A stretch of 64,000 bases of DNA from the IMG/VR virus record IMGVR_UViG_3300043446_002688, one strand, 5' to 3'. How positions within the stretch are numbered: position 1 is the stretch's first letter; the number at the start of each line of letters is the position of its first letter. A program made the position numbers and the translations under genes. This DNA is from a virus. Of this stretch, positions 196-46,867 are shown one piece after another. The notes beneath the pieces are model-generated. The model worked only from the letters and a program-made list of their open reading frames with translations, did no database searches and was not told the origin of the DNA.

Positions 196-270
196 GGAGA
201 TATTAGTTTAGTGGTAAAACCACGGGTTGTGATTCCGTTATCAAGAGTTCGATTCTCTTATATCTCCCCA
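196..270 (+). tRNA. tRNA-His(GUG)
   Basis: Cloverleaf, encoded G-1, C73, GTG anticodon, TTCGATT loop, encoded CCA. Confidence 0.95.
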
Positions 271-275
271 AATAT

Positions 276-350
276 GCATCGTTAGCTCAGCGGTAGAGCT
301 GCGCCCTTACAAGGCGAAGGTCGGGAGTTCAATCCTCTCACGATGCACCA
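276..350 (+). tRNA. tRNA-Val(UAC)
   Basis: GCATCGT/ACGATGC acceptor stem, TAC anticodon, CCA. Confidence 0.95.
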
Positions 351-354
351 ATAT

Positions 355-430
355 GCAACTTTAGCTGATGTGGTCATAGCGGTGGTCTGAAGAACCATTG
401 AAAGAGGTTCGATTCCTCTAGGTTGCACCA
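355..430 (+). tRNA. tRNA-Phe(GAA)
   Basis: GCAACTT/AGGTTGC stem, CT-GAA-GA loop, CCA. Confidence 0.93.
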
Positions 431-433
431 AAT

Positions 434-510
434 GCCCAAGTGACGAAATAGGTAAACGTGCATGTCTCAAACACATGTTTTTGTGGGCTCGAATCCCACC
501 TTGGGTACCA
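434..510 (+). tRNA. tRNA-Leu(CAA), short variable loop
   Basis: GCCCAAG/CTTGGGT stem, CAA anticodon, 5-nt variable region, CTCGAAT T-loop, CCA. Confidence 0.88.
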
Positions 511-511
511 T

Positions 512-585
512 GCTCCTATAGTTTAATGGCAAAACAAATCCATGGTAAGGATTAAATGAAAGTTCGATTCTTTCTTGGAGCACCA
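512..585 (+). tRNA. tRNA-Thr(GGU)
   Basis: GCTCCTA/TTGGAGC stem, AT-GGT-AA loop, CCA. Confidence 0.88.
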
Positions 586-754
586 AGTTGTTTTATTTCA
601 GTTCGTTCAAATGGAACATTTTCTTTTTTAGGAAAAGATGGCGCAAAAGTTTTCTCACATACATATGATTTTCTATCAATGTATGGTTGAGTTGCGGCAT
701 ATCGCCAAAGATTAGGTTCTGCTGATTTGAATTCTGACATAAGATTATTTATTT

Positions 755-831
755 GCCCCGATGACGGAATTGGTATACGTGTTGGTCTTAGAAACCAAAT
801 TTTGCGAGTTCGACTCTCGCTTGGGGCACCA
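755..831 (+). tRNA. tRNA-Leu(UAG), short variable loop
   Basis: GCCCCGA/TTGGGGC stem, TAG anticodon, 5-nt variable region, CCA. Confidence 0.9.
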
Positions 832-836
832 AACAA

Positions 837-911
837 CTGGCGTTAGTATAATGGATAATACAGAAGGCTTCTACCCTTTTAATGTGGGTTCGATTCCTGC
901 ACGCCGGACCA
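837..911 (+). tRNA. tRNA-Arg(UCU)
   Basis: CTGGCGT/ACGCCGG stem, TCT anticodon, CCA. Confidence 0.9.
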
Positions 912-915
912 GTTT

Positions 916-1005
916 GCGACTGTGGTGAAATAGGTAGACGCATCGGACTTAAAATCCGAAGATTCCGAAAGGGTCGTGCCGGTTCGATTCCGGCCAGTCG
1001 CACCA
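916..1005 (+). tRNA. tRNA-Leu(UAA), long variable arm
   Basis: GCGACTG/CAGTCGC stem, TAA anticodon, class II variable arm, CCA. Confidence 0.95.
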
Positions 1006-1013
1006 AATAATGC

Positions 1014-1042
1014 TTGACAAATGATTGTGGAGCATATATAAT
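1014..1042 (+). promoter_or_regulatory. sigma70-type promoter inside tRNA array
   Basis: TTGACA-17nt-TATAAT, perfect consensus. Confidence 0.9.
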
Positions 1043-1051
1043 AACTCTTTT

Positions 1052-1125
1052 GCGGGTATGATGTAAAGGTAACCTGAAACCTTGCCAAGGTTTATTTGCG
1101 AGTTCGATTCTCGCTACCCGCTCCA
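1052..1125 (+). tRNA. tRNA-Gly(GCC)
   Basis: GCGGGTA/TACCCGC stem, GCC anticodon, U73, CCA. Confidence 0.93.
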
Positions 1126-1130
1126 AATTT

Positions 1131-1204
1131 GCCCTGTTAGTTAAGTGGTATAACATCTGTTTTGTAATCAGAGGTTGGCAGTTCGATTCTGTCACGGGGC
1201 ACCA
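1131..1204 (+). tRNA. tRNA-Thr(UGU)
   Basis: GCCCTGT/ACGGGGC stem, TGT anticodon, CCA. Confidence 0.93.
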
Positions 1205-1228
1205 AACGGTATATTTTAAAAAAAACTA

Positions 1229-1257
1229 TTGACTCTACAAATTTTTTGATATATAAT
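1229..1257 (+). promoter_or_regulatory. sigma70-type promoter
   Basis: TTGACT-17nt-TATAAT. Confidence 0.85.
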
Positions 1258-1265
1258 ACATACAT

Positions 1266-1339
1266 GCGGAATTAGTTTAGTGGCAAAACGCTATCCTTCC
1301 AAGTTAGAGTTATCAGTTCGATTCTGATATTCCGCTCCA
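1266..1339 (+). tRNA. tRNA-Gly(UCC)
   Basis: GCGGAAT/ATTCCGC stem, TCC anticodon, U73, CCA. Confidence 0.93.
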
Positions 1340-1347
1340 AGTTTTAT

Positions 1348-1412
1348 GCGGGAGTTTTTAACAATGTTGGGGTCCACCCAATATACAAGTGAGAATCTTG
1401 TTTCCCGCTCCA
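1348..1412 (+). ncRNA. D-arm-less tRNA-Gly-like RNA (65 nt)
   Basis: GCGGGAG/TTCCCGC acceptor, U73+CCA, ATGTTGG/CCAATAT stem with GGTCCAC loop (TCC central), ACAAG-TGAGAAT-CTTGT T-arm, 9-nt linker replacing the D-arm. Confidence 0.75.
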
Positions 1413-1417
1413 TTTGT

Positions 1418-1494
1418 AGCAGTGTAGAGAAGAAGCCATCTCACCAGGTTCATACCCTCGGAGGTCGTTGGTGCGAGTCCAACCACTGCAACCA
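1418..1494 (+). tRNA. tRNA-Met(CAU), initiator-like
   Basis: AGCAGTG/CACTGCA with 1:72 mismatch, CAT anticodon, TGCGAGT T-loop, CCA. Confidence 0.8.
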
Positions 1495-43553: not shown

Positions 43554-44213
43554 TCAAGCTGTCGCTGCAGCAATACGAATAACCTTGGCCATTTTCTTAC
43601 CGTGGGCCTGATAACCGATAACCGCCACGGTTTTGTCATAGCAAGCACGGCAGTCCAAGCATTTTCCATCCTGCTCTGGGGCGGCGCACAATGTAACACC
43701 TGCTGGCACTGGTGCACCTGCTGGCACAATGGTACTACCATGGCCTGCACCAAAGGTACCATCCACAGCGTCACTGCTATAGCGGACCATTACATTAGGC
43801 AGTGCTTGCATGGCATTGAGCACGTTATGGAATTTAGGGAATTTATACATGCGGGTGGGTAACCAGTGCTTTACATGGGGAGTAGCTGCCATGATGGCGA
43901 GCATTTTCTCTGCCAATGCGAGGCTATACACGTCGCCAGAATCAAACCAACGGAAGTGGGTTTGCTTTTGTAAAGCTTTGACCATCACCTGGATCCAGTC
44001 AGCTTCTTGCCATGCCTTTTTATTGTCAGCACGGACCTTTTTTGTATCGGGGAAATTGTAGCAACCAGTGGTAGCGTAGCAACCAGAGCAAGCAGCGACC
44101 AGCTCACCATTTTCACCAACCGAACCGGGACAGGTTTCAATAGCTTGGAGGGACCATGAAAGGGTACCAAGCTTGCTGGTTTTGGAAATTTTGTTTATTG
44201 TCGCTGCTGTCAT
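43554..44213 (-). CDS. Gp88-like Cys-rich phage protein
   Basis: SWSL..CPGS...CSGCYA...FRWFDSGD...HWLPTR...CLDCRAC. Confidence 0.75.
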   Translation of the reverse strand: MTAATINKISKTSKLGTLSWSLQAIETCPGSVGENGELVAACSGCYATTGCYNFPDTKKVRADNKKAWQEADWIQVMVKALQKQTHFRWFDSGDVYSLALAEKMLAIMAATPHVKHWLPTRMYKFPKFHNVLNAMQALPNVMVRYSSDAVDGTFGAGHGSTIVPAGAPVPAGVTLCAAPEQDGKCLDCRACYDKTVAVIGYQAHGKKMAKVIRIAAATA

Positions 44214-44244
44214 TGCTATTCCTTTTTGATTTACTATGGAATGA

Positions 44245-44272
44245 ATTATACCAGAATTCCTGAAAATGGCAA
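44245..44272 (-). promoter_or_regulatory. Early promoter
   Basis: TTGCCA-16-TATAAT preceded by AAAGTATTAGG. Confidence 0.8.
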
Positions 44273-44305
44273 CCTAATACTTTTTTATTCCATCCGACCG
44301 GTGGG

Positions 44306-44401
44306 TTACATTGCTCTCCACACGGTTACATCCAACACCAACACCACCACAGCGGCAACCATCACCACCGAGAAAACCACGGATTCTAATTTTGCGAGCA
44401 T
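44306..44401 (-). CDS. Small single-TM peptide (31 aa)
   Basis: AAAGGA RBS, MLAKLESVVFSVVMVAAVVVLVLDVTVWRAM. Confidence 0.6.
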   Translation of the reverse strand: MLAKLESVVFSVVMVAAVVVLVLDVTVWRAM

Positions 44402-44417
44402 TTTACTTCCTTTCGGA

Positions 44418-44639
44418 TCAATAGGACTGGTGGGAATGGCCGATAGCATATGCAACGGCATCGGCGGCAGCACAATCCTCGCCAGAAGCGTCCACTGGAC
44501 GAGGGGTGAAAATTGCAGCAAAGTCATCATAGCAATAATAACCAGAATGGGTTACCACCAAGCGAGCATCAGCAGGCAGGCGGGACAATGCGGCAATCAT
44601 ATCAGCCACGGAAATAGAGTCATCGGATGGTGAAAACAT
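44418..44639 (-). CDS. Hypothetical protein
   Basis: AAAAGGA RBS, own promoter. Confidence 0.75.
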   Translation of the reverse strand: MFSPSDDSISVADMIAALSRLPADARLVVTHSGYYCYDDFAAIFTPRPVDASGEDCAAADAVAYAIGHSHQSY

Positions 44640-44672
44640 TTTGCTGTCCTTTTGTTTGTTTGTATGGAATGA

Positions 44673-44700
44673 ATTATACCAGAACCAGAAGGAATGGCAA
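44673..44700 (-). promoter_or_regulatory. Early promoter
   Basis: TTGCCA-16-TATAAT; leader nearly identical to that of the 44245 promoter. Confidence 0.8.
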
Positions 44701-44724
44701 CCTATTGTCCATCCATCCGGTGGG

Positions 44725-45063
44725 TTATTTTACAGCGCTTGCCTTTTTTGCCATAATAGCAGAGGCTATGGCGTTATCTTCGGCGCCGTACACCACAGCT
44801 TTGCTTGGCTTACGGTTTGCTTTCAGAGCTTTCACACCTACAGGCGCTGCTTGCTTTGCGAGCAGTTTATCCAATCGGGCTTGTGCCTTAGCGATAGCAG
44901 CAGCCTGCTTACTGGCCTTGGCTTCTGCTTTCGCAGCCTTGGCGTTTTCACGTTCTTGCTTTACACCAGCAGCAAGGCGTTGAACCTCGAGCTTTGCATT
45001 GGCAAGATTAATACGGGCTTGCTTGAGAGCAGTAACCAACATGGAGGGAGCTTTTGCTGACAT
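44725..45063 (-). CDS. Ala/Lys-rich basic (histone-like) protein
   Basis: AKAAKAEAKASKQAAAIAK; AAAGGA RBS. Confidence 0.8.
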   Translation of the reverse strand: MSAKAPSMLVTALKQARINLANAKLEVQRLAAGVKQERENAKAAKAEAKASKQAAAIAKAQARLDKLLAKQAAPVGVKALKANRKPSKAVVYGAEDNAIASAIMAKKASAVK

Positions 45064-45094
45064 TTTTTGTCCTTTCAAATTCAACATGGGATGG

Positions 45095-45123
45095 ATTCTA
45101 ACCTAAAATTGCCGTTTTGGCAA
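45095..45123 (-). promoter_or_regulatory. Early promoter
   Basis: TTGCCA-17-TAGAAT. Confidence 0.75.
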
Positions 45124-45139
45124 CTGTAAACTTTTTTCT

Positions 45140-45418
45140 TCAAGCAGTCCGGTCGTGTATTTTGTGCACCTTACTAGCATTTTCAGCCAGCAGCCTATCA
45201 TCCATGAGCTTGCTCAGGATATATTTTGCAATATTAATATGCTGGCGTGCTTGGTTCTGGGTTTGCGCTGTGTTGCAGCTCATCAGCTCTTGAGCATCCG
45301 ACAGCACGCTCATAGCGACCATTTCCAGACCGGACAAGCGAGCGGTCAAGCTCTGGCAATATTCCTGCTCGATTGTCGCTTGGCTGATACCGTAGCACTG
45401 CTTTTCAAATTCCGTCAT
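45140..45418 (-). CDS. Conserved early phage protein
   Basis: MTEFEKQCYG...SDAQEL...ARQHINIAKYIL; AAAAGGA RBS. Confidence 0.78.
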   Translation of the reverse strand: MTEFEKQCYGISQATIEQEYCQSLTARLSGLEMVAMSVLSDAQELMSCNTAQTQNQARQHINIAKYILSKLMDDRLLAENASKVHKIHDRTA

Positions 45419-45448
45419 TTTGCTGTCCTTTTCAAATTTCATGGATGA

Positions 45449-45477
45449 ATTATAGGCGATTTTGCAGGTTTTGGCAA
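45449..45477 (-). promoter_or_regulatory. Early promoter
   Basis: TTGCCA-17-TATAAT. Confidence 0.8.
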
Positions 45478-45526
45478 GTGTAAACTTTTTTCTTCCAGCG
45501 GACAATATGAGAACCATTGCGCTATA

Positions 45527-45554
45527 TTGCCAAGGGTTCTGGTTTGTGTATAAT
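45527..45554 (+). promoter_or_regulatory. Divergent promoter reading into a non-coding region
   Basis: TTGCCA-16-TATAAT. Confidence 0.7.
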
Positions 45555-45811
45555 CCAACCCATAGCAATCGGTAGCCGGAGCTCTAATCCGACCCTGCCT
45601 GATGGTTATCGGTCGCCGCCGGATTAATACTTTTGTTTGCAGGATCACACTGGGGCTGCATACTTTTGTTTCTCGGCTGGACCATCGAGCGTCATTTTGT
45701 TTTCAACCTGCGTGGTTTTTGTATACTTTGGCATTAATCCGGCATCTGACCCAGAGACTAAGTTGGACTAATACCAAAGCATTAGCGATAGTTTGCGACT
45801 ATTGGTGCGAC

Positions 45812-45890
45812 TTATCCACAGCATACCCACAAGGGTCAAAAGTTATTCACATTTTATCTACAAAGTAAAGTTATCCACAGCATATCCACA
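45812..45890 (+). promoter_or_regulatory. Array of six co-oriented DnaA boxes
   Basis: TTATCCACA 45812, ATACCCACA 45823, TTATTCACA 45843, TTATCTACA 45854, TTATCCACA 45871, ATATCCACA 45882. Confidence 0.8.
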
Positions 45891-45931
45891 GCGAATAGTT
45901 GACCAAAATGCTTGAATACTATGGTACTAGG

Positions 45932-45960
45932 TTGCCAAAATGCGTTTTTCCCAGTATAAT
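45932..45960 (+). promoter_or_regulatory. Early promoter
   Basis: TTGCCA-17-TATAAT preceded by a motif copy. Confidence 0.8.
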
Positions 45961-46062
45961 TCCACGCATGATGAGCACAAAAGCACGAAGTGCAAAAACA
46001 ATGAATATTGGAAATGAATACTTTTTTATTCCATTACAATGATGGATTACTTTTGTATTATA

Positions 46063-46090
46063 TTGCCATTTTTCGGTTTTTGTGTATAAT
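46063..46090 (+). promoter_or_regulatory. Early promoter
   Basis: TTGCCA-16-TATAAT preceded by a motif copy. Confidence 0.8.
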
Positions 46091-46113
46091 GTAATTTTTT
46101 AACGCAGCAGATT

Positions 46114-46281
46114 ATGACACAGCAGAAAATGTATACTTTGGTATTCACTGAGGCAGAATTAGAATTAATTTATGACCAGCTGAATATTGTAGAACTTTAT
46201 GATGATTCTGATGAAAACTTAGAACTTTGTATTTCAATTAATGAAAAAGTATTCAAGGCGAAAGAAAATGAAACAATTTGA
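46114..46281 (+). CDS. Small acidic early protein (55 aa)
   Basis: MTQQKMYTLVFTEAELELIYDQL...; directly after a promoter. Confidence 0.55.
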   Translation: MTQQKMYTLVFTEAELELIYDQLNIVELYDDSDENLELCISINEKVFKAKENETI

Positions 46282-46462
46282 ATTAATTTTTGACGGTGTA
46301 AGTATTGAGTATACAGGATATTTCAAAAGTGAGAAGGATTGTATTACATACACACGAAAGCGTTACAAAACCCATGCGGATGTAATGAAAATTCGTGCAG
46401 TTTACCCAAAACTGGAAAATGTATACTATTCGGTTAAAACAGGAAAGGTTGTGGCAGAATGA
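46268..46462 (+). CDS. Hypothetical protein
   Basis: AAGG RBS, ATG at 46268. Confidence 0.6.
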   Translation: MKQFELIFDGVSIEYTGYFKSEKDCITYTRKRYKTHADVMKIRAVYPKLENVYYSVKTGKVVAE

Positions 46463-46587
46463 TAACTTTGGTATTACATTGTGATGGATATGATGAAAAA
46501 GTAGTATTCCGAGAGGATCAAATGGATCAATTCGTATACACTTTATTGGTTTGTAATAAAAATGGTAACACTTTTGAATTGGAGTAA
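46459..46587 (+). CDS. Small hypothetical protein (42 aa)
   Basis: ATGA overlap. Confidence 0.5.
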   Translation: MITLVLHCDGYDEKVVFREDQMDQFVYTLLVCNKNGNTFELE

Positions 46588-46592
46588 GTAAA

Positions 46593-46793
46593 ATGTCTAA
46601 AATGTCAGAAATTAGTATGATTCTGGGTGAATATGAGGAAAACCTGCACGCCTACGGGCACGCCGATCCGATTGTCGTTGCAATGAAACGAGAACTTTTG
46701 TCTTACGGCATTCAGGATGTGAATGATTTGGTTCGTGGTATTGATGACGAATTTGATACTTTGGTTTTCAACGGTCAGATGGATTTATTCTGA
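46593..46793 (+). CDS. Hypothetical protein
   Basis: GGAG RBS. Confidence 0.7.
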   Translation: MSKMSEISMILGEYEENLHAYGHADPIVVAMKRELLSYGIQDVNDLVRGIDDEFDTLVFNGQMDLF

Positions 46794-46867
46794 GGTAATA
46801 AGATAGTATACACTAACCTGTATACTTTAGTATTCTAGCGAGGTACTGGAGTATTAAAGTATTCAGG

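What the first reader, a model, noticed from the sequence alone, without database searches (positions are those of the whole stretch)
45812..45890. oriC-like array of six DnaA boxes in a T4-like phage
Seen: three tandem pairs of co-oriented boxes, each pair 11 bp apart (strong then weak, 2-nt gap). They lie in the non-coding divergence point, followed by AT-rich DNA (about 46010-46100); I saw no comparable cluster elsewhere in the window. Known: TTATNCACA is the DnaA R-box, 2-nt-spaced boxes support DnaA filaments, T4-like phages replicate independently of DnaA, and datA titrates DnaA. Inference: either a DnaA-assisted phage origin or a DnaA sink that blocks host initiation as phage copy number rises.
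Basis: partly seen in the sequence, partly recalled or inferred. Interest (0 to 1): 0.8.

Follow-up and report, generated by a model that had tools for sequence, protein, structure and literature searches.

The report
Host DnaA-box array in T4-like phage
An uncultured T4-like phage and its relatives keep a tight row of paired binding sites for DnaA, the bacterial protein that starts chromosome copying, between two early promoters, so the phage almost certainly docks this host protein there, although what the docking achieves cannot be settled from sequence.

Summary
Six co-oriented DnaA boxes form three strong-then-weak pairs with a 2-nt gap at 45812-45890. This is the only such cluster in the 177-kb phage genome, and none of 300 Markov simulations reached its density.

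Six relatives with the homologous locus, and further T4-like relatives, keep 3-5 boxes at the same place. All seven close loci have at least one 2-nt-gap pair. The number, position and orientation of the boxes vary, which is the pattern expected of a selected binding-site cluster.

The pair is the 'double DnaA box', the unit that E. coli DnaA binds in vivo (PMC11317965). The phage encodes no DnaA DNA-binding domain, so host DnaA is the likely ligand.

It is not an oriC copy. There are no conserved DnaA-trios, no IHF core, no GATC cluster and no adjacent unwinding element. The array is inverted in some relatives, and GC skew does not switch here.

The array lies between two conserved sigma70-type early promoters, in a hub dense with a second dyad motif. 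This resembles T4 oriE (early promoter, evenly spaced repeats, transcriptional divergence).

My best reading (0.4) is a transcription-coupled origin and control hub that docks DnaA. Pure promoter regulation (0.27) and a DnaA sink (0.12) remain open.

This scan has found similar arrays on other phage DNA. Perfect double boxes occur in at least 119 IMG/VR contigs.

The parts
45812..45831 (+). Double DnaA box 1: TTATCCACA-gc-ATACCCACA (strong, then weak with 2 mismatches)
   Evidence: The pair is identical in G001, L096 and L097, and G002 has TTACCCACA-ta-TTATCAACA at the same position.
45843..45862 (+). Double DnaA box 2: TTATTCACA-tt-TTATCTACA
   Evidence: This is the part of the array that changes between relatives. 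The second box is deleted in G001 and L096, and L097 has a single inverted TGTGGATAA in its place.
45871..45890 (+). Double DnaA box 3: TTATCCACA-gc-ATATCCACA; box centres lie about -92 and -81 from the predicted P2 start
   Evidence: Both boxes are perfect in G001 and L096, where the gap is 'ag'. The same gc pair is seen in the more distant L218 and L230.
45527..45554 (+). Promoter-like site P1 (TTGCCA-N16-TATAAT), reading towards the array
   Evidence: It is conserved in all 6 relatives that have enough upstream sequence.
45449..45477 (-). Leftward promoter-like site, back to back with P1; it heads the 4-cassette leftward island
   Evidence: TTGCCA-N17-TATAAT on the - strand.
45555..45811 (+). 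Non-coding leader between P1 and the array, about 50% GC. It holds dyad-like sites (45626, 45722, 45770) and the most conserved block, 45757-45780, followed by TTTGCGAC.
   Evidence: There is no covariation support for an RNA structure (covariation term +3.76). The 5' part comes in two alternative versions among relatives.
45915..45928 (+). Dyad AATAC-N4-GTAyT, 3 nt upstream of the P2 -35 hexamer
   Evidence: It matches the search pattern AATAC-N4-GTA[TC]T in 6 of 7 loci (AATACTATGGTATT in five relatives, AATACTATGGTACT in the window).
45932..45960 (+). Promoter-like site P2 (TTGCCA-N17-TATAAT), 41 nt downstream of the last box
   Evidence: It is conserved in all 7 loci, and the distance from the conserved block to P2 is 140-141 or 151 bp.
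45980..46100 (.). AT-rich non-coding stretch with two dyads (46017, 46046) and promoter-like site P3 (46063-46090)
   Evidence: It is not kept in L097 or L218, where a gene follows P2 directly.
43554..45477 (-). Neighbouring leftward, GC-richer island of four promoter-plus-gene cassettes, ending in a GP88/DUF7227 gene (43554-44213)
   Evidence: GP88 homologues also lie 0.5-1.2 kb from DnaA arrays in 5 other contigs; the one examined in depth is podovirus-like.

Best explanation
The six boxes are three 'double DnaA boxes' that dock the host initiator DnaA, as dimers that can join into a short oligomer. They sit in a conserved, non-coding early control hub with this order: P1, a dyad-rich leader, the conserved block, the DnaA array, a dyad and then P2.

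The most likely role is a cis-acting, transcription-coupled origin and control element of the T4 oriE type (early promoter, evenly spaced direct repeats, local transcriptional divergence), with host DnaA boxes in the place of phage iterons. In this model, bound DnaA, together with whatever binds the neighbouring dyads, shapes or opens the DNA between the two early promoters. An early transcript could then be used to start the first round of replication, with the phage's own gp59 and gp41 taking over.

Shown here: the array is real, unique in the genome, non-coding and under selection; its unit is the in vivo DnaA-binding unit; and the phage has no DnaA-like DNA-binding domain.

Inferred only: that DnaA binds, that DnaA-ATP is preferred at the weak boxes, and any link to replication.
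For: - The cluster is non-random and unique in 177 kb.
- All 7 homologous loci keep 3-5 boxes with at most 1 mismatch and at least one 2-nt-gap pair between the conserved block and P2. Each has P <= 0.002 against shuffles.
- In the four closest loci, 40 of 54 box columns are identical against 53 of 97 non-box columns. By eye in the alignment, 35 of the 36 columns of pairs 1 and 3 are identical. The gap letters vary (gc, ag, gg, ta, tt) while the gap length does not.
- More distant T4-like relatives (GP88 62-75% identical) keep an array at the same place.
- E. coli DnaA binds in vivo almost only to co-oriented pairs 2-3 bp apart (PMC11317965).
- The phage genome has no Bac_DnaA_C domain.
- One site per genome, and the genes downstream of P2 differ between relatives while P1, the array and P2 stay. 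This points to a cis-acting element rather than control of one gene.
- T4 oriE depends on an early promoter, carries evenly spaced direct repeats and lies near transcriptional divergence (PMC3016281).
- In podovirus-like contigs, comparable arrays sit in the divergent gap next to the primase-helicase module.
Against: - T4 is not known to use DnaA; the T4 replication review does not mention it.
- The phage has its own helicase and loader.
- No DnaA-trio, IHF core or GATC cluster is conserved.
- The AT-rich stretch is 90-120 bp away, is not the least stable site in the genome, and is not kept in all relatives.
- Orientation and box number change between relatives, which fits any occupancy-based role equally well.
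- GC skew does not change sign here.
- Nothing here measures binding or replication.
Confidence: 0.4

Rival explanations
1. DnaA acts here purely as a transcription factor. The array couples early transcription to the host's DnaA-ATP level, either by activating or repressing P2 or by blocking read-through from P1. This would work as the boxes between dnaAp1 and dnaAp2 do in E. coli, with no role in replication.
For: - The array lies between two conserved co-directional promoters.
- The proximal pair is centred at about -81 and -92 from P2 in 5 of 7 loci, and length changes come in steps of 10-11 bp.
- Orientation is flexible.
- Nearly all in vivo DnaA sites in E. coli (15 of 16 bound regions), among them sites upstream of polA, purH and mioC, are double boxes.
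Against: - Only one of at least 8 early promoter-like sites in this region carries boxes.
- The genes downstream of P2 differ between relatives.
- Boxes at -81 to -151 are far upstream for simple repression.
Confidence: 0.27
2. The array is a DnaA sink (datA-like or a simple sponge). As phage copy number rises, the arrays soak up or inactivate DnaA and stop host initiation.
For: - High-affinity cooperative pairs, and orientation that does not matter.
- Other phage contigs carry much larger arrays of 10-15 boxes, which look more like sponges.
Against: - There are only 3-6 boxes per genome (counting the 2-mismatch partners) and no IHF core, which datA needs.
- Titration would matter only late, after replication.
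- A sink does not explain the fixed place between the conserved block and P2 or the 10-11-bp length steps.
Confidence: 0.12
3. The locus is a true oriC-type origin. A DnaA filament on the co-oriented boxes melts the AT-rich DNA at 46010-46100 and starts replication by itself.
For: - Strong-then-weak tandem pairs are the commonest box layout of bacterial origin unwinding systems (57% of origins; PMC8287927).
- As I recall the E. coli oriC sequence (not checked here), the unwinding element lies on the 3' side of box R1 read as TTATCCACA. The AT-rich DNA here lies on that same side.
Against: - No conserved DnaA-trio run on either side or strand.
- The AT-rich DNA is separated from the boxes by a dyad and a promoter.
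- The array is inverted in L220 and L267 and convergent in G002, whereas reversing the proximal boxes kills B. subtilis incC (PMC6669920).
- No IHF core or GATC cluster, and no skew switch.
Confidence: 0.08
4. The repeats are iterons for a phage-encoded protein or another host protein, and only resemble DnaA boxes.
For: - The hub contains a second, unexplained dyad motif with an unknown binder.
- Many phage proteins here have no known family.
Against: - The commonest variant in all loci is the exact consensus TTATCCACA, and the variants are the classic tolerated ones (TTATTCACA, TTATCAACA, ATATCCACA).
- The 2-nt gap is the spacing that DnaA needs.
- No DnaA domain IV is encoded.
- The same perfect pair occurs in at least 119 IMG/VR contigs; those tested share few or no genes with this phage.
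Confidence: 0.07

Closest known systems
[quoted passage not shown]
   Same: Both have two co-oriented 9-mers 2-3 bp apart, often one consensus box and one degenerate box, lying near promoters. In that study both boxes and the spacing were needed for binding in vivo.
   Different: Here three such units stand in a row in a phage genome, binding is untested, and the host is unknown.
Bacteriophage T4 oriE (Kreuzer and Brister 2010, PMC3016281)
   Same: Both occur in a T4-type phage and combine an early-mode promoter, a cluster of evenly spaced direct repeats and a region of transcriptional divergence. The role of the repeats is unproven there too.
   Different: The T4 repeats are 12-nt phage-specific iterons, not DnaA boxes, and no role for DnaA is known in T4. 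Origin activity is unmeasured here.
DnaA-box pairs in the injection-stop region of T5-like phages (bioRxiv 10.1101/866236)
   Same: Both are found in a virulent phage: conserved pairs of consensus and variant DnaA boxes (including TTATCAACA) in a large non-coding region next to strongly expressed early genes. The function there is only hypothesised.
   Different: T5 pairs have a 3-bp gap, sit inside inverted repeats and lie in the terminal repeat. This phage shows no end repeats, and its relatives' contigs break at different places.
Bacterial origin basal unwinding system (BUS; Pelliciari 2021 PMC8287927, Richardson 2019 PMC6669920)
   Same: Both have tandem co-oriented boxes at most 3 bp apart, with the upstream box closer to consensus.
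   Different: There are no DnaA-trios and no adjacent AT-rich element, and orientation is not fixed.
E. coli dnaA promoter region and datA (from my own knowledge)
   Same: In the dnaA promoter region, DnaA boxes lie between two tandem promoters. datA is a non-origin cluster of DnaA boxes.
   Different: No IHF core is found here, the boxes do not overlap the promoter hexamers, and the element is on a phage.

Membership tests
Double DnaA box (in vivo DnaA-binding unit) | Two co-oriented DnaA boxes separated by 2 or 3 bp, at least one of them close to TTATCCACA | tested here: met
   There are three such pairs at 45812, 45843 and 45871. At least one pair is present in all 7 homologous loci.
Double DnaA box (in vivo DnaA-binding unit) | DnaA occupancy in vivo or in vitro | not testable with these tools
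   This needs EMSA, footprinting or ChIP.
Bacterial oriC basal unwinding system | At least three DnaA-trios (NAN repeats, consensus 3'-GAT-5') within 0-16 bp of the boxes | tested here: not met
   The longest runs are 2-4 trinucleotides, on varying sides and strands, and are not conserved between loci.
Bacterial oriC basal unwinding system | An AT-rich unwinding element directly after the trios, and a fixed box orientation | tested here: not met
   The AT-rich DNA starts 90-120 bp away, beyond P2. The array is inverted in L220 and L267 and convergent in G002.
E. coli-type oriC / datA | An IHF site (WATCAANNNNTTR) and, for oriC, a GATC cluster | tested here: not met
   Six of 7 loci have no IHF core, and the single match in L092 overlaps a box. 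There is one conserved GATC about 138 bp before the end of the conserved block.
T4 oriE-type origin | Early-mode promoter, cluster of evenly spaced direct repeats and transcriptional divergence | tested here: met
   P1 and P2 match the sigma70 consensus and are conserved. The repeats have an 11-bp period. The back-to-back promoters lie at 45449-45554.
T4 oriE-type origin | Measured origin activity; iteron sequence homologous to T4 | not testable with these tools
   There are no replication data. The repeats are DnaA boxes, not T4's 12-nt iterons, as described.
T5-like injection-stop DnaA boxes | Pairs of boxes inside inverted repeats within the terminal repeat (first-step-transfer DNA) | tested here: not met
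   The record has no end repeats. The array is about 76 kb from the end of this record but 2 kb from the end of G001. The gap is 2 nt rather than 3.
Iteron plasmid or phage-plasmid origins (P1 oriR, F oriS, RK2 oriV) | DnaA boxes beside Rep iterons and an adjacent rep gene | tested here: inconclusive
   A second repeated dyad motif flanks the boxes. The neighbouring small genes have no recognisable family, and no initiator was found.

The most novel reading that the evidence does not exclude
A whole clade of aquatic T4-like phages fires its first replication round from an oriE-like, early-promoter origin that depends on host DnaA docked on double boxes. This would overturn the view that T4-type replication is independent of DnaA. 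More broadly, 11-bp-period DnaA-box arrays would be a common, undescribed cis element through which many unrelated virulent phages read or use the host initiator.
Probability: 0.3. Interest if true: 0.8.

Novelty: new variant of a known kind. Interest (0 to 1): 0.6.

Why it matters
T4-type phages are the textbook case of replication that does not need the host initiator, and the review of T4 origins does not mention DnaA at all. A DnaA docking site kept under selection in the early control region of a T4-like clade means these phages interact with the host's replication-initiation system. They may use it to start their own replication, to time early transcription by host state, or to disarm the host.

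The same 2-nt-gap pair occurs in at least 119 viral contigs, against about 3 expected by my own rough estimate of the collection's size, often as arrays of 5-15 boxes. The element may therefore be a general phage device that has not been studied. In the papers I could search, the only described case in a virulent phage is the T5 injection-stop region, whose function is also unknown.

It can be tested directly with DnaA footprinting, reporter fusions and run-out assays in E. coli, even without the natural host.

Tried and rejected
- **Coding explanation.** ORF 45602-45868 spans the boxes but is broken by a 10-bp and a 1-bp indel in G001, so I rejected it.
- **Structured RNA from P1.** RNAalifold on 3 and on 6 leaders gave a positive (penalising) covariation term. 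The single-sequence z-score was only -1.8, and there was no Rfam hit. Not supported.
- **Leaderless small ORF after P2.** Its length ranges from 11 to 50 aa, and the ATG that follows the -10 hexamer in the other loci is missing in L097. Probably not a gene.
- **BUS, oriC and datA features.** Trios, an IHF core and a GATC cluster were not found.
- **GC skew as an origin marker.** There is no sign change at the locus. Skew is positive on both sides, and nearly all genes are on one strand. Uninformative or negative.
- **Phage-encoded DnaA-like binder.** No PF08299 domain.
- **MotA.** Not found, but the control search was silent, so this is inconclusive.
- **Cultured relatives.** There was no DNA match to 45300-46600 in GenBank phages. 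A 32-nt query of pair 3 found scattered double boxes in Lactococcus, Microbacterium, Streptomyces and Pseudomonas phages. In KVP40-like Vibrio phages it found only a single box plus a weak partner inside a CDS, which is likely chance.
- **GP88/DUF7227 function.** No PDB or NCBIfam hit, a low-confidence AlphaFold model (pLDDT 55), and the Atlas returned only the same family. Dropped.
- **Host identity.** Not established.
- **One literature search** was badly framed and returned nothing useful.

Full report
**What the sequence is.** The window is bases 58263-122262 (minus strand) of a 176,978-bp IMG/VR virus record that CheckV rates complete. It is T4-like in the broad sense:
- a family B DNA polymerase, 52% identical at best to those of Synechococcus myophages;
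- rIIA, gp59 and a gp41-type helicase, and ribonucleotide reductase;
- a 12-gene tRNA array.

There is no close cultured relative, and the host is unknown.

**The observation.** One search shows six boxes on the + strand:

| Start | Sequence | Mismatches to TTATCCACA |
|---|---|---|
| 45812 | TTATCCACA | 0 |
| 45823 | ATACCCACA | 2 |
| 45843 | TTATTCACA | 1 (none to TTATNCACA) |
| 45854 | TTATCTACA | 1 |
| 45871 | TTATCCACA | 0 |
| 45882 | ATATCCACA | 1 |

Single boxes are not enriched in the window, but the cluster is. It is the densest in the genome, with five boxes of at most 1 mismatch in 80 bp. In 300 Markov-2 simulated genomes the maximum never exceeded four. No other strong pair exists anywhere in the 177 kb.

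**Surroundings.** The array is non-coding, because the only ORF across it is broken by indels in the nearest relative. It lies between two co-directional sigma70-type promoter-like sites:
- P1 (45527-45554), about 260 bp upstream;
- P2 (45932-45960), 41 bp downstream.

P1 stands back to back with a leftward promoter (45449-45477). That promoter heads a GC-richer island of four promoter-plus-gene cassettes ending in a GP88/DUF7227 gene.

The region 44.2-46.9 kb is also dense in a second motif, the dyad AATAC-N4-GTATT. There are 68 matches in the window against 46 expected, with about a quarter of them in this 2.7 kb.

Downstream of P2 is an AT-rich stretch (70-80% AT) that carries two dyads and a third promoter-like site. 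It falls in the top 0.2% of 100-bp windows for instability but is not the least stable site in the genome.

**Conservation.** I anchored on the most conserved non-coding block (45757-45780). That recovered the homologous locus in two IMG/VR genomes and four metagenome contigs. All seven loci carry 3-5 boxes with at most 1 mismatch between the block and P2. Each has at least one pair with the 2-nt gap, and each is significant against shuffles (P <= 0.002). The layout differs between loci:

| Locus | Layout of the array |
|---|---|
| Window | three direct pairs |
| G001, L096 | pair, single box, perfect pair |
| L097 | pair, inverted single box, pair |
| L095, L098 | a palindrome, then two pairs |
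| G002 | two convergent pairs |

The letters in the gap vary (gc, ag, gg, ta, tt) but its length does not. In the four closest loci, 40 of 54 box columns are identical against 53 of 97 non-box columns. By eye in that alignment, pairs 1 and 3 are identical at 35 of 36 columns.

More distant T4-like relatives, found through the GP88 gene (62-75% identity), keep an array at the same place. It has the same orientation in L218 and L230 and is inverted as a whole in L220 and L267. This is turnover of binding sites under selection for occupancy and pair geometry.

**Who binds.** ChIP-seq in E. coli showed that DnaA binds in vivo almost only to co-oriented 'double DnaA boxes' 2-3 bp apart, at 15 of 16 bound regions. 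Both boxes and the spacing were required (PMC11317965; I took this lead from an earlier scan note and read the paper myself). The phage pairs are exactly that unit. The phage genome encodes no DnaA domain IV. Host DnaA is therefore by far the most likely ligand, and I put this at about 0.85.

**Is it an oriC-like origin?** The defining features beyond the tandem boxes are not met:
- no conserved DnaA-trio run on either side or strand (definition in PMC8287927);
- no IHF core and no GATC cluster;
- the AT-rich DNA starts 90-120 bp from the boxes, beyond a dyad and a promoter, and is replaced by a gene in L097 and L218;
- orientation is not fixed, whereas reversing the proximal boxes inactivates B. 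subtilis incC (PMC6669920);
- GC skew is positive on both sides with no switch, and nearly all genes lie on one strand;
- the phage has its own helicase and loader.

[quoted passage not shown] The T4 replication review never mentions DnaA (PMC3016281). The present hub has all three architectural features, with DnaA boxes as the repeats.

Two further points favour a cis-acting role over control of a particular gene. There is only one site per genome. The genes behind P2 differ between relatives while P1, the leader block, the array and P2 are kept.

On the other side, several points fit DnaA acting as a transcription factor on P2 or on read-through from P1:
- the proximal pair is centred near -81 and -92 from P2 in most loci;
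- the distance from the conserved block to P2 takes only the values 140-141 or 151 bp;
- orientation is flexible.

In T4-type origins the two roles are not exclusive, because there the promoter is part of the origin.

A sink is possible but weak. The array has only 3-6 boxes counting the 2-mismatch partners, it lacks an IHF site, it could act only late, and a sink does not explain the fixed position.

**Wider context.**
By my own rough estimate of the collection's size, about 3 would be expected by chance.
- Many of these are co-oriented 11-bp-period arrays of 5-15 boxes with no long open frame across them.
- In podovirus-like contigs the array sits in the divergent gap between a primase-helicase module and the terminase-portal module.
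- In five such contigs a GP88 homologue lies 0.5-1.2 kb away, as it does here.
- T5-like phages carry conserved DnaA-box pairs with a 3-bp gap in the injection-stop region, with no proven function (bioRxiv 10.1101/866236). That is the only described case in a virulent phage that I found.
- This scan has noted similar arrays in over 100 other genomes, including two other T4-like phages with the same verdict. I count those notes as leads, not evidence.

**Verdict.** The element is a selected dock for host DnaA. The oriC analogy fails on architecture, and the function is unresolved. My estimates are:

| Reading | Probability |
|---|---|
| oriE-like, transcription-coupled origin and control hub | 0.40 |
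| Pure early-promoter regulation | 0.27 |
| DnaA sink | 0.12 |
| Autonomous oriC-type unwinding | 0.08 |
| Non-DnaA binder | 0.07 |

I class it as a new variant of a known kind (DnaA-box clusters), with interest 0.6.

Noticed in passing
window 43554-44213 (-); L193, L136, L103, L105, L154: A GP88/DUF7227 gene (219 aa) has a CX13CX2C motif near the N-terminus and four C-terminal cysteines, three of them as CX2CX2C. It lies 1.6 kb from the array here. Homologues 50-57% identical lie 0.5-1.2 kb from DnaA-box arrays in five other contigs that share few or no other genes with this phage. In all cases the gene is transcribed away from the array. The function is unknown: there was no PDB or NCBIfam hit, and the AlphaFold model had pLDDT 55.
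   Followed up: partly
window 44276-46863: The dyad motif AATAC-N4-GTATT is enriched (68 matches against 46 expected in the window). It is concentrated in this 2.7-kb hub and often sits 3 nt upstream of -35 hexamers. The binder is unknown.
   Followed up: partly
L099-L216 (IMG/VR contigs): Perfect 2-nt-gap DnaA-box pairs occur in at least 119 viral contigs. Many are dense 11-bp-period arrays of up to 15 boxes, for example L147, L109, L174 and L206. A notable share lie within about 100 bp of a contig end, which could reflect either assembly breaks at repeats or genome termini.
   Followed up: partly
window 45555-45700 and homologous loci: The 5' part of the P1 leader exists in two unrelated versions among close relatives (window, L097 and L098 against G001, L096 and G002). 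This indicates recombination inside the non-coding hub.
   Followed up: no
whole genome (G000): Nearly all long ORFs lie on one strand. GC skew is negative in the first 12 kb (window coordinates about -55 to -43 kb), mostly positive from there to about +80 kb, and near zero or negative from about +81 to +117 kb, except one bin near +85 kb. It therefore changes sign far from the DnaA array.
   Followed up: partly
window 45968-46042 and homologues: An ATG lies 7-8 nt after the P2 -10 hexamer in 6 of 7 loci, which would give a leaderless start. The ORF length varies from 11 to 50 aa, and the ATG that follows the -10 hexamer in the other loci is missing in L097. It is probably not a gene.
   Followed up: yes
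window 46114-46500 and homologues: The first genes behind P2 differ between close relatives. They start MTQQKMYTLVF, MKQFELIFDG or MQNLSKNDY, in different orders. This is a mosaic of small early-gene cassettes, each with its own promoter.
   Followed up: no
L275 and L248: L275 has TTGTCCACA-type boxes next to a long (CTGC)n-like tract. L248 has an array of about 18-bp repeats containing TGTGCATTA. These may be variant arrays for other box consensus sequences.
   Followed up: no
   Followed up: yes
window 197-1494: An array of 12 tRNA genes on the + strand.
   Followed up: no
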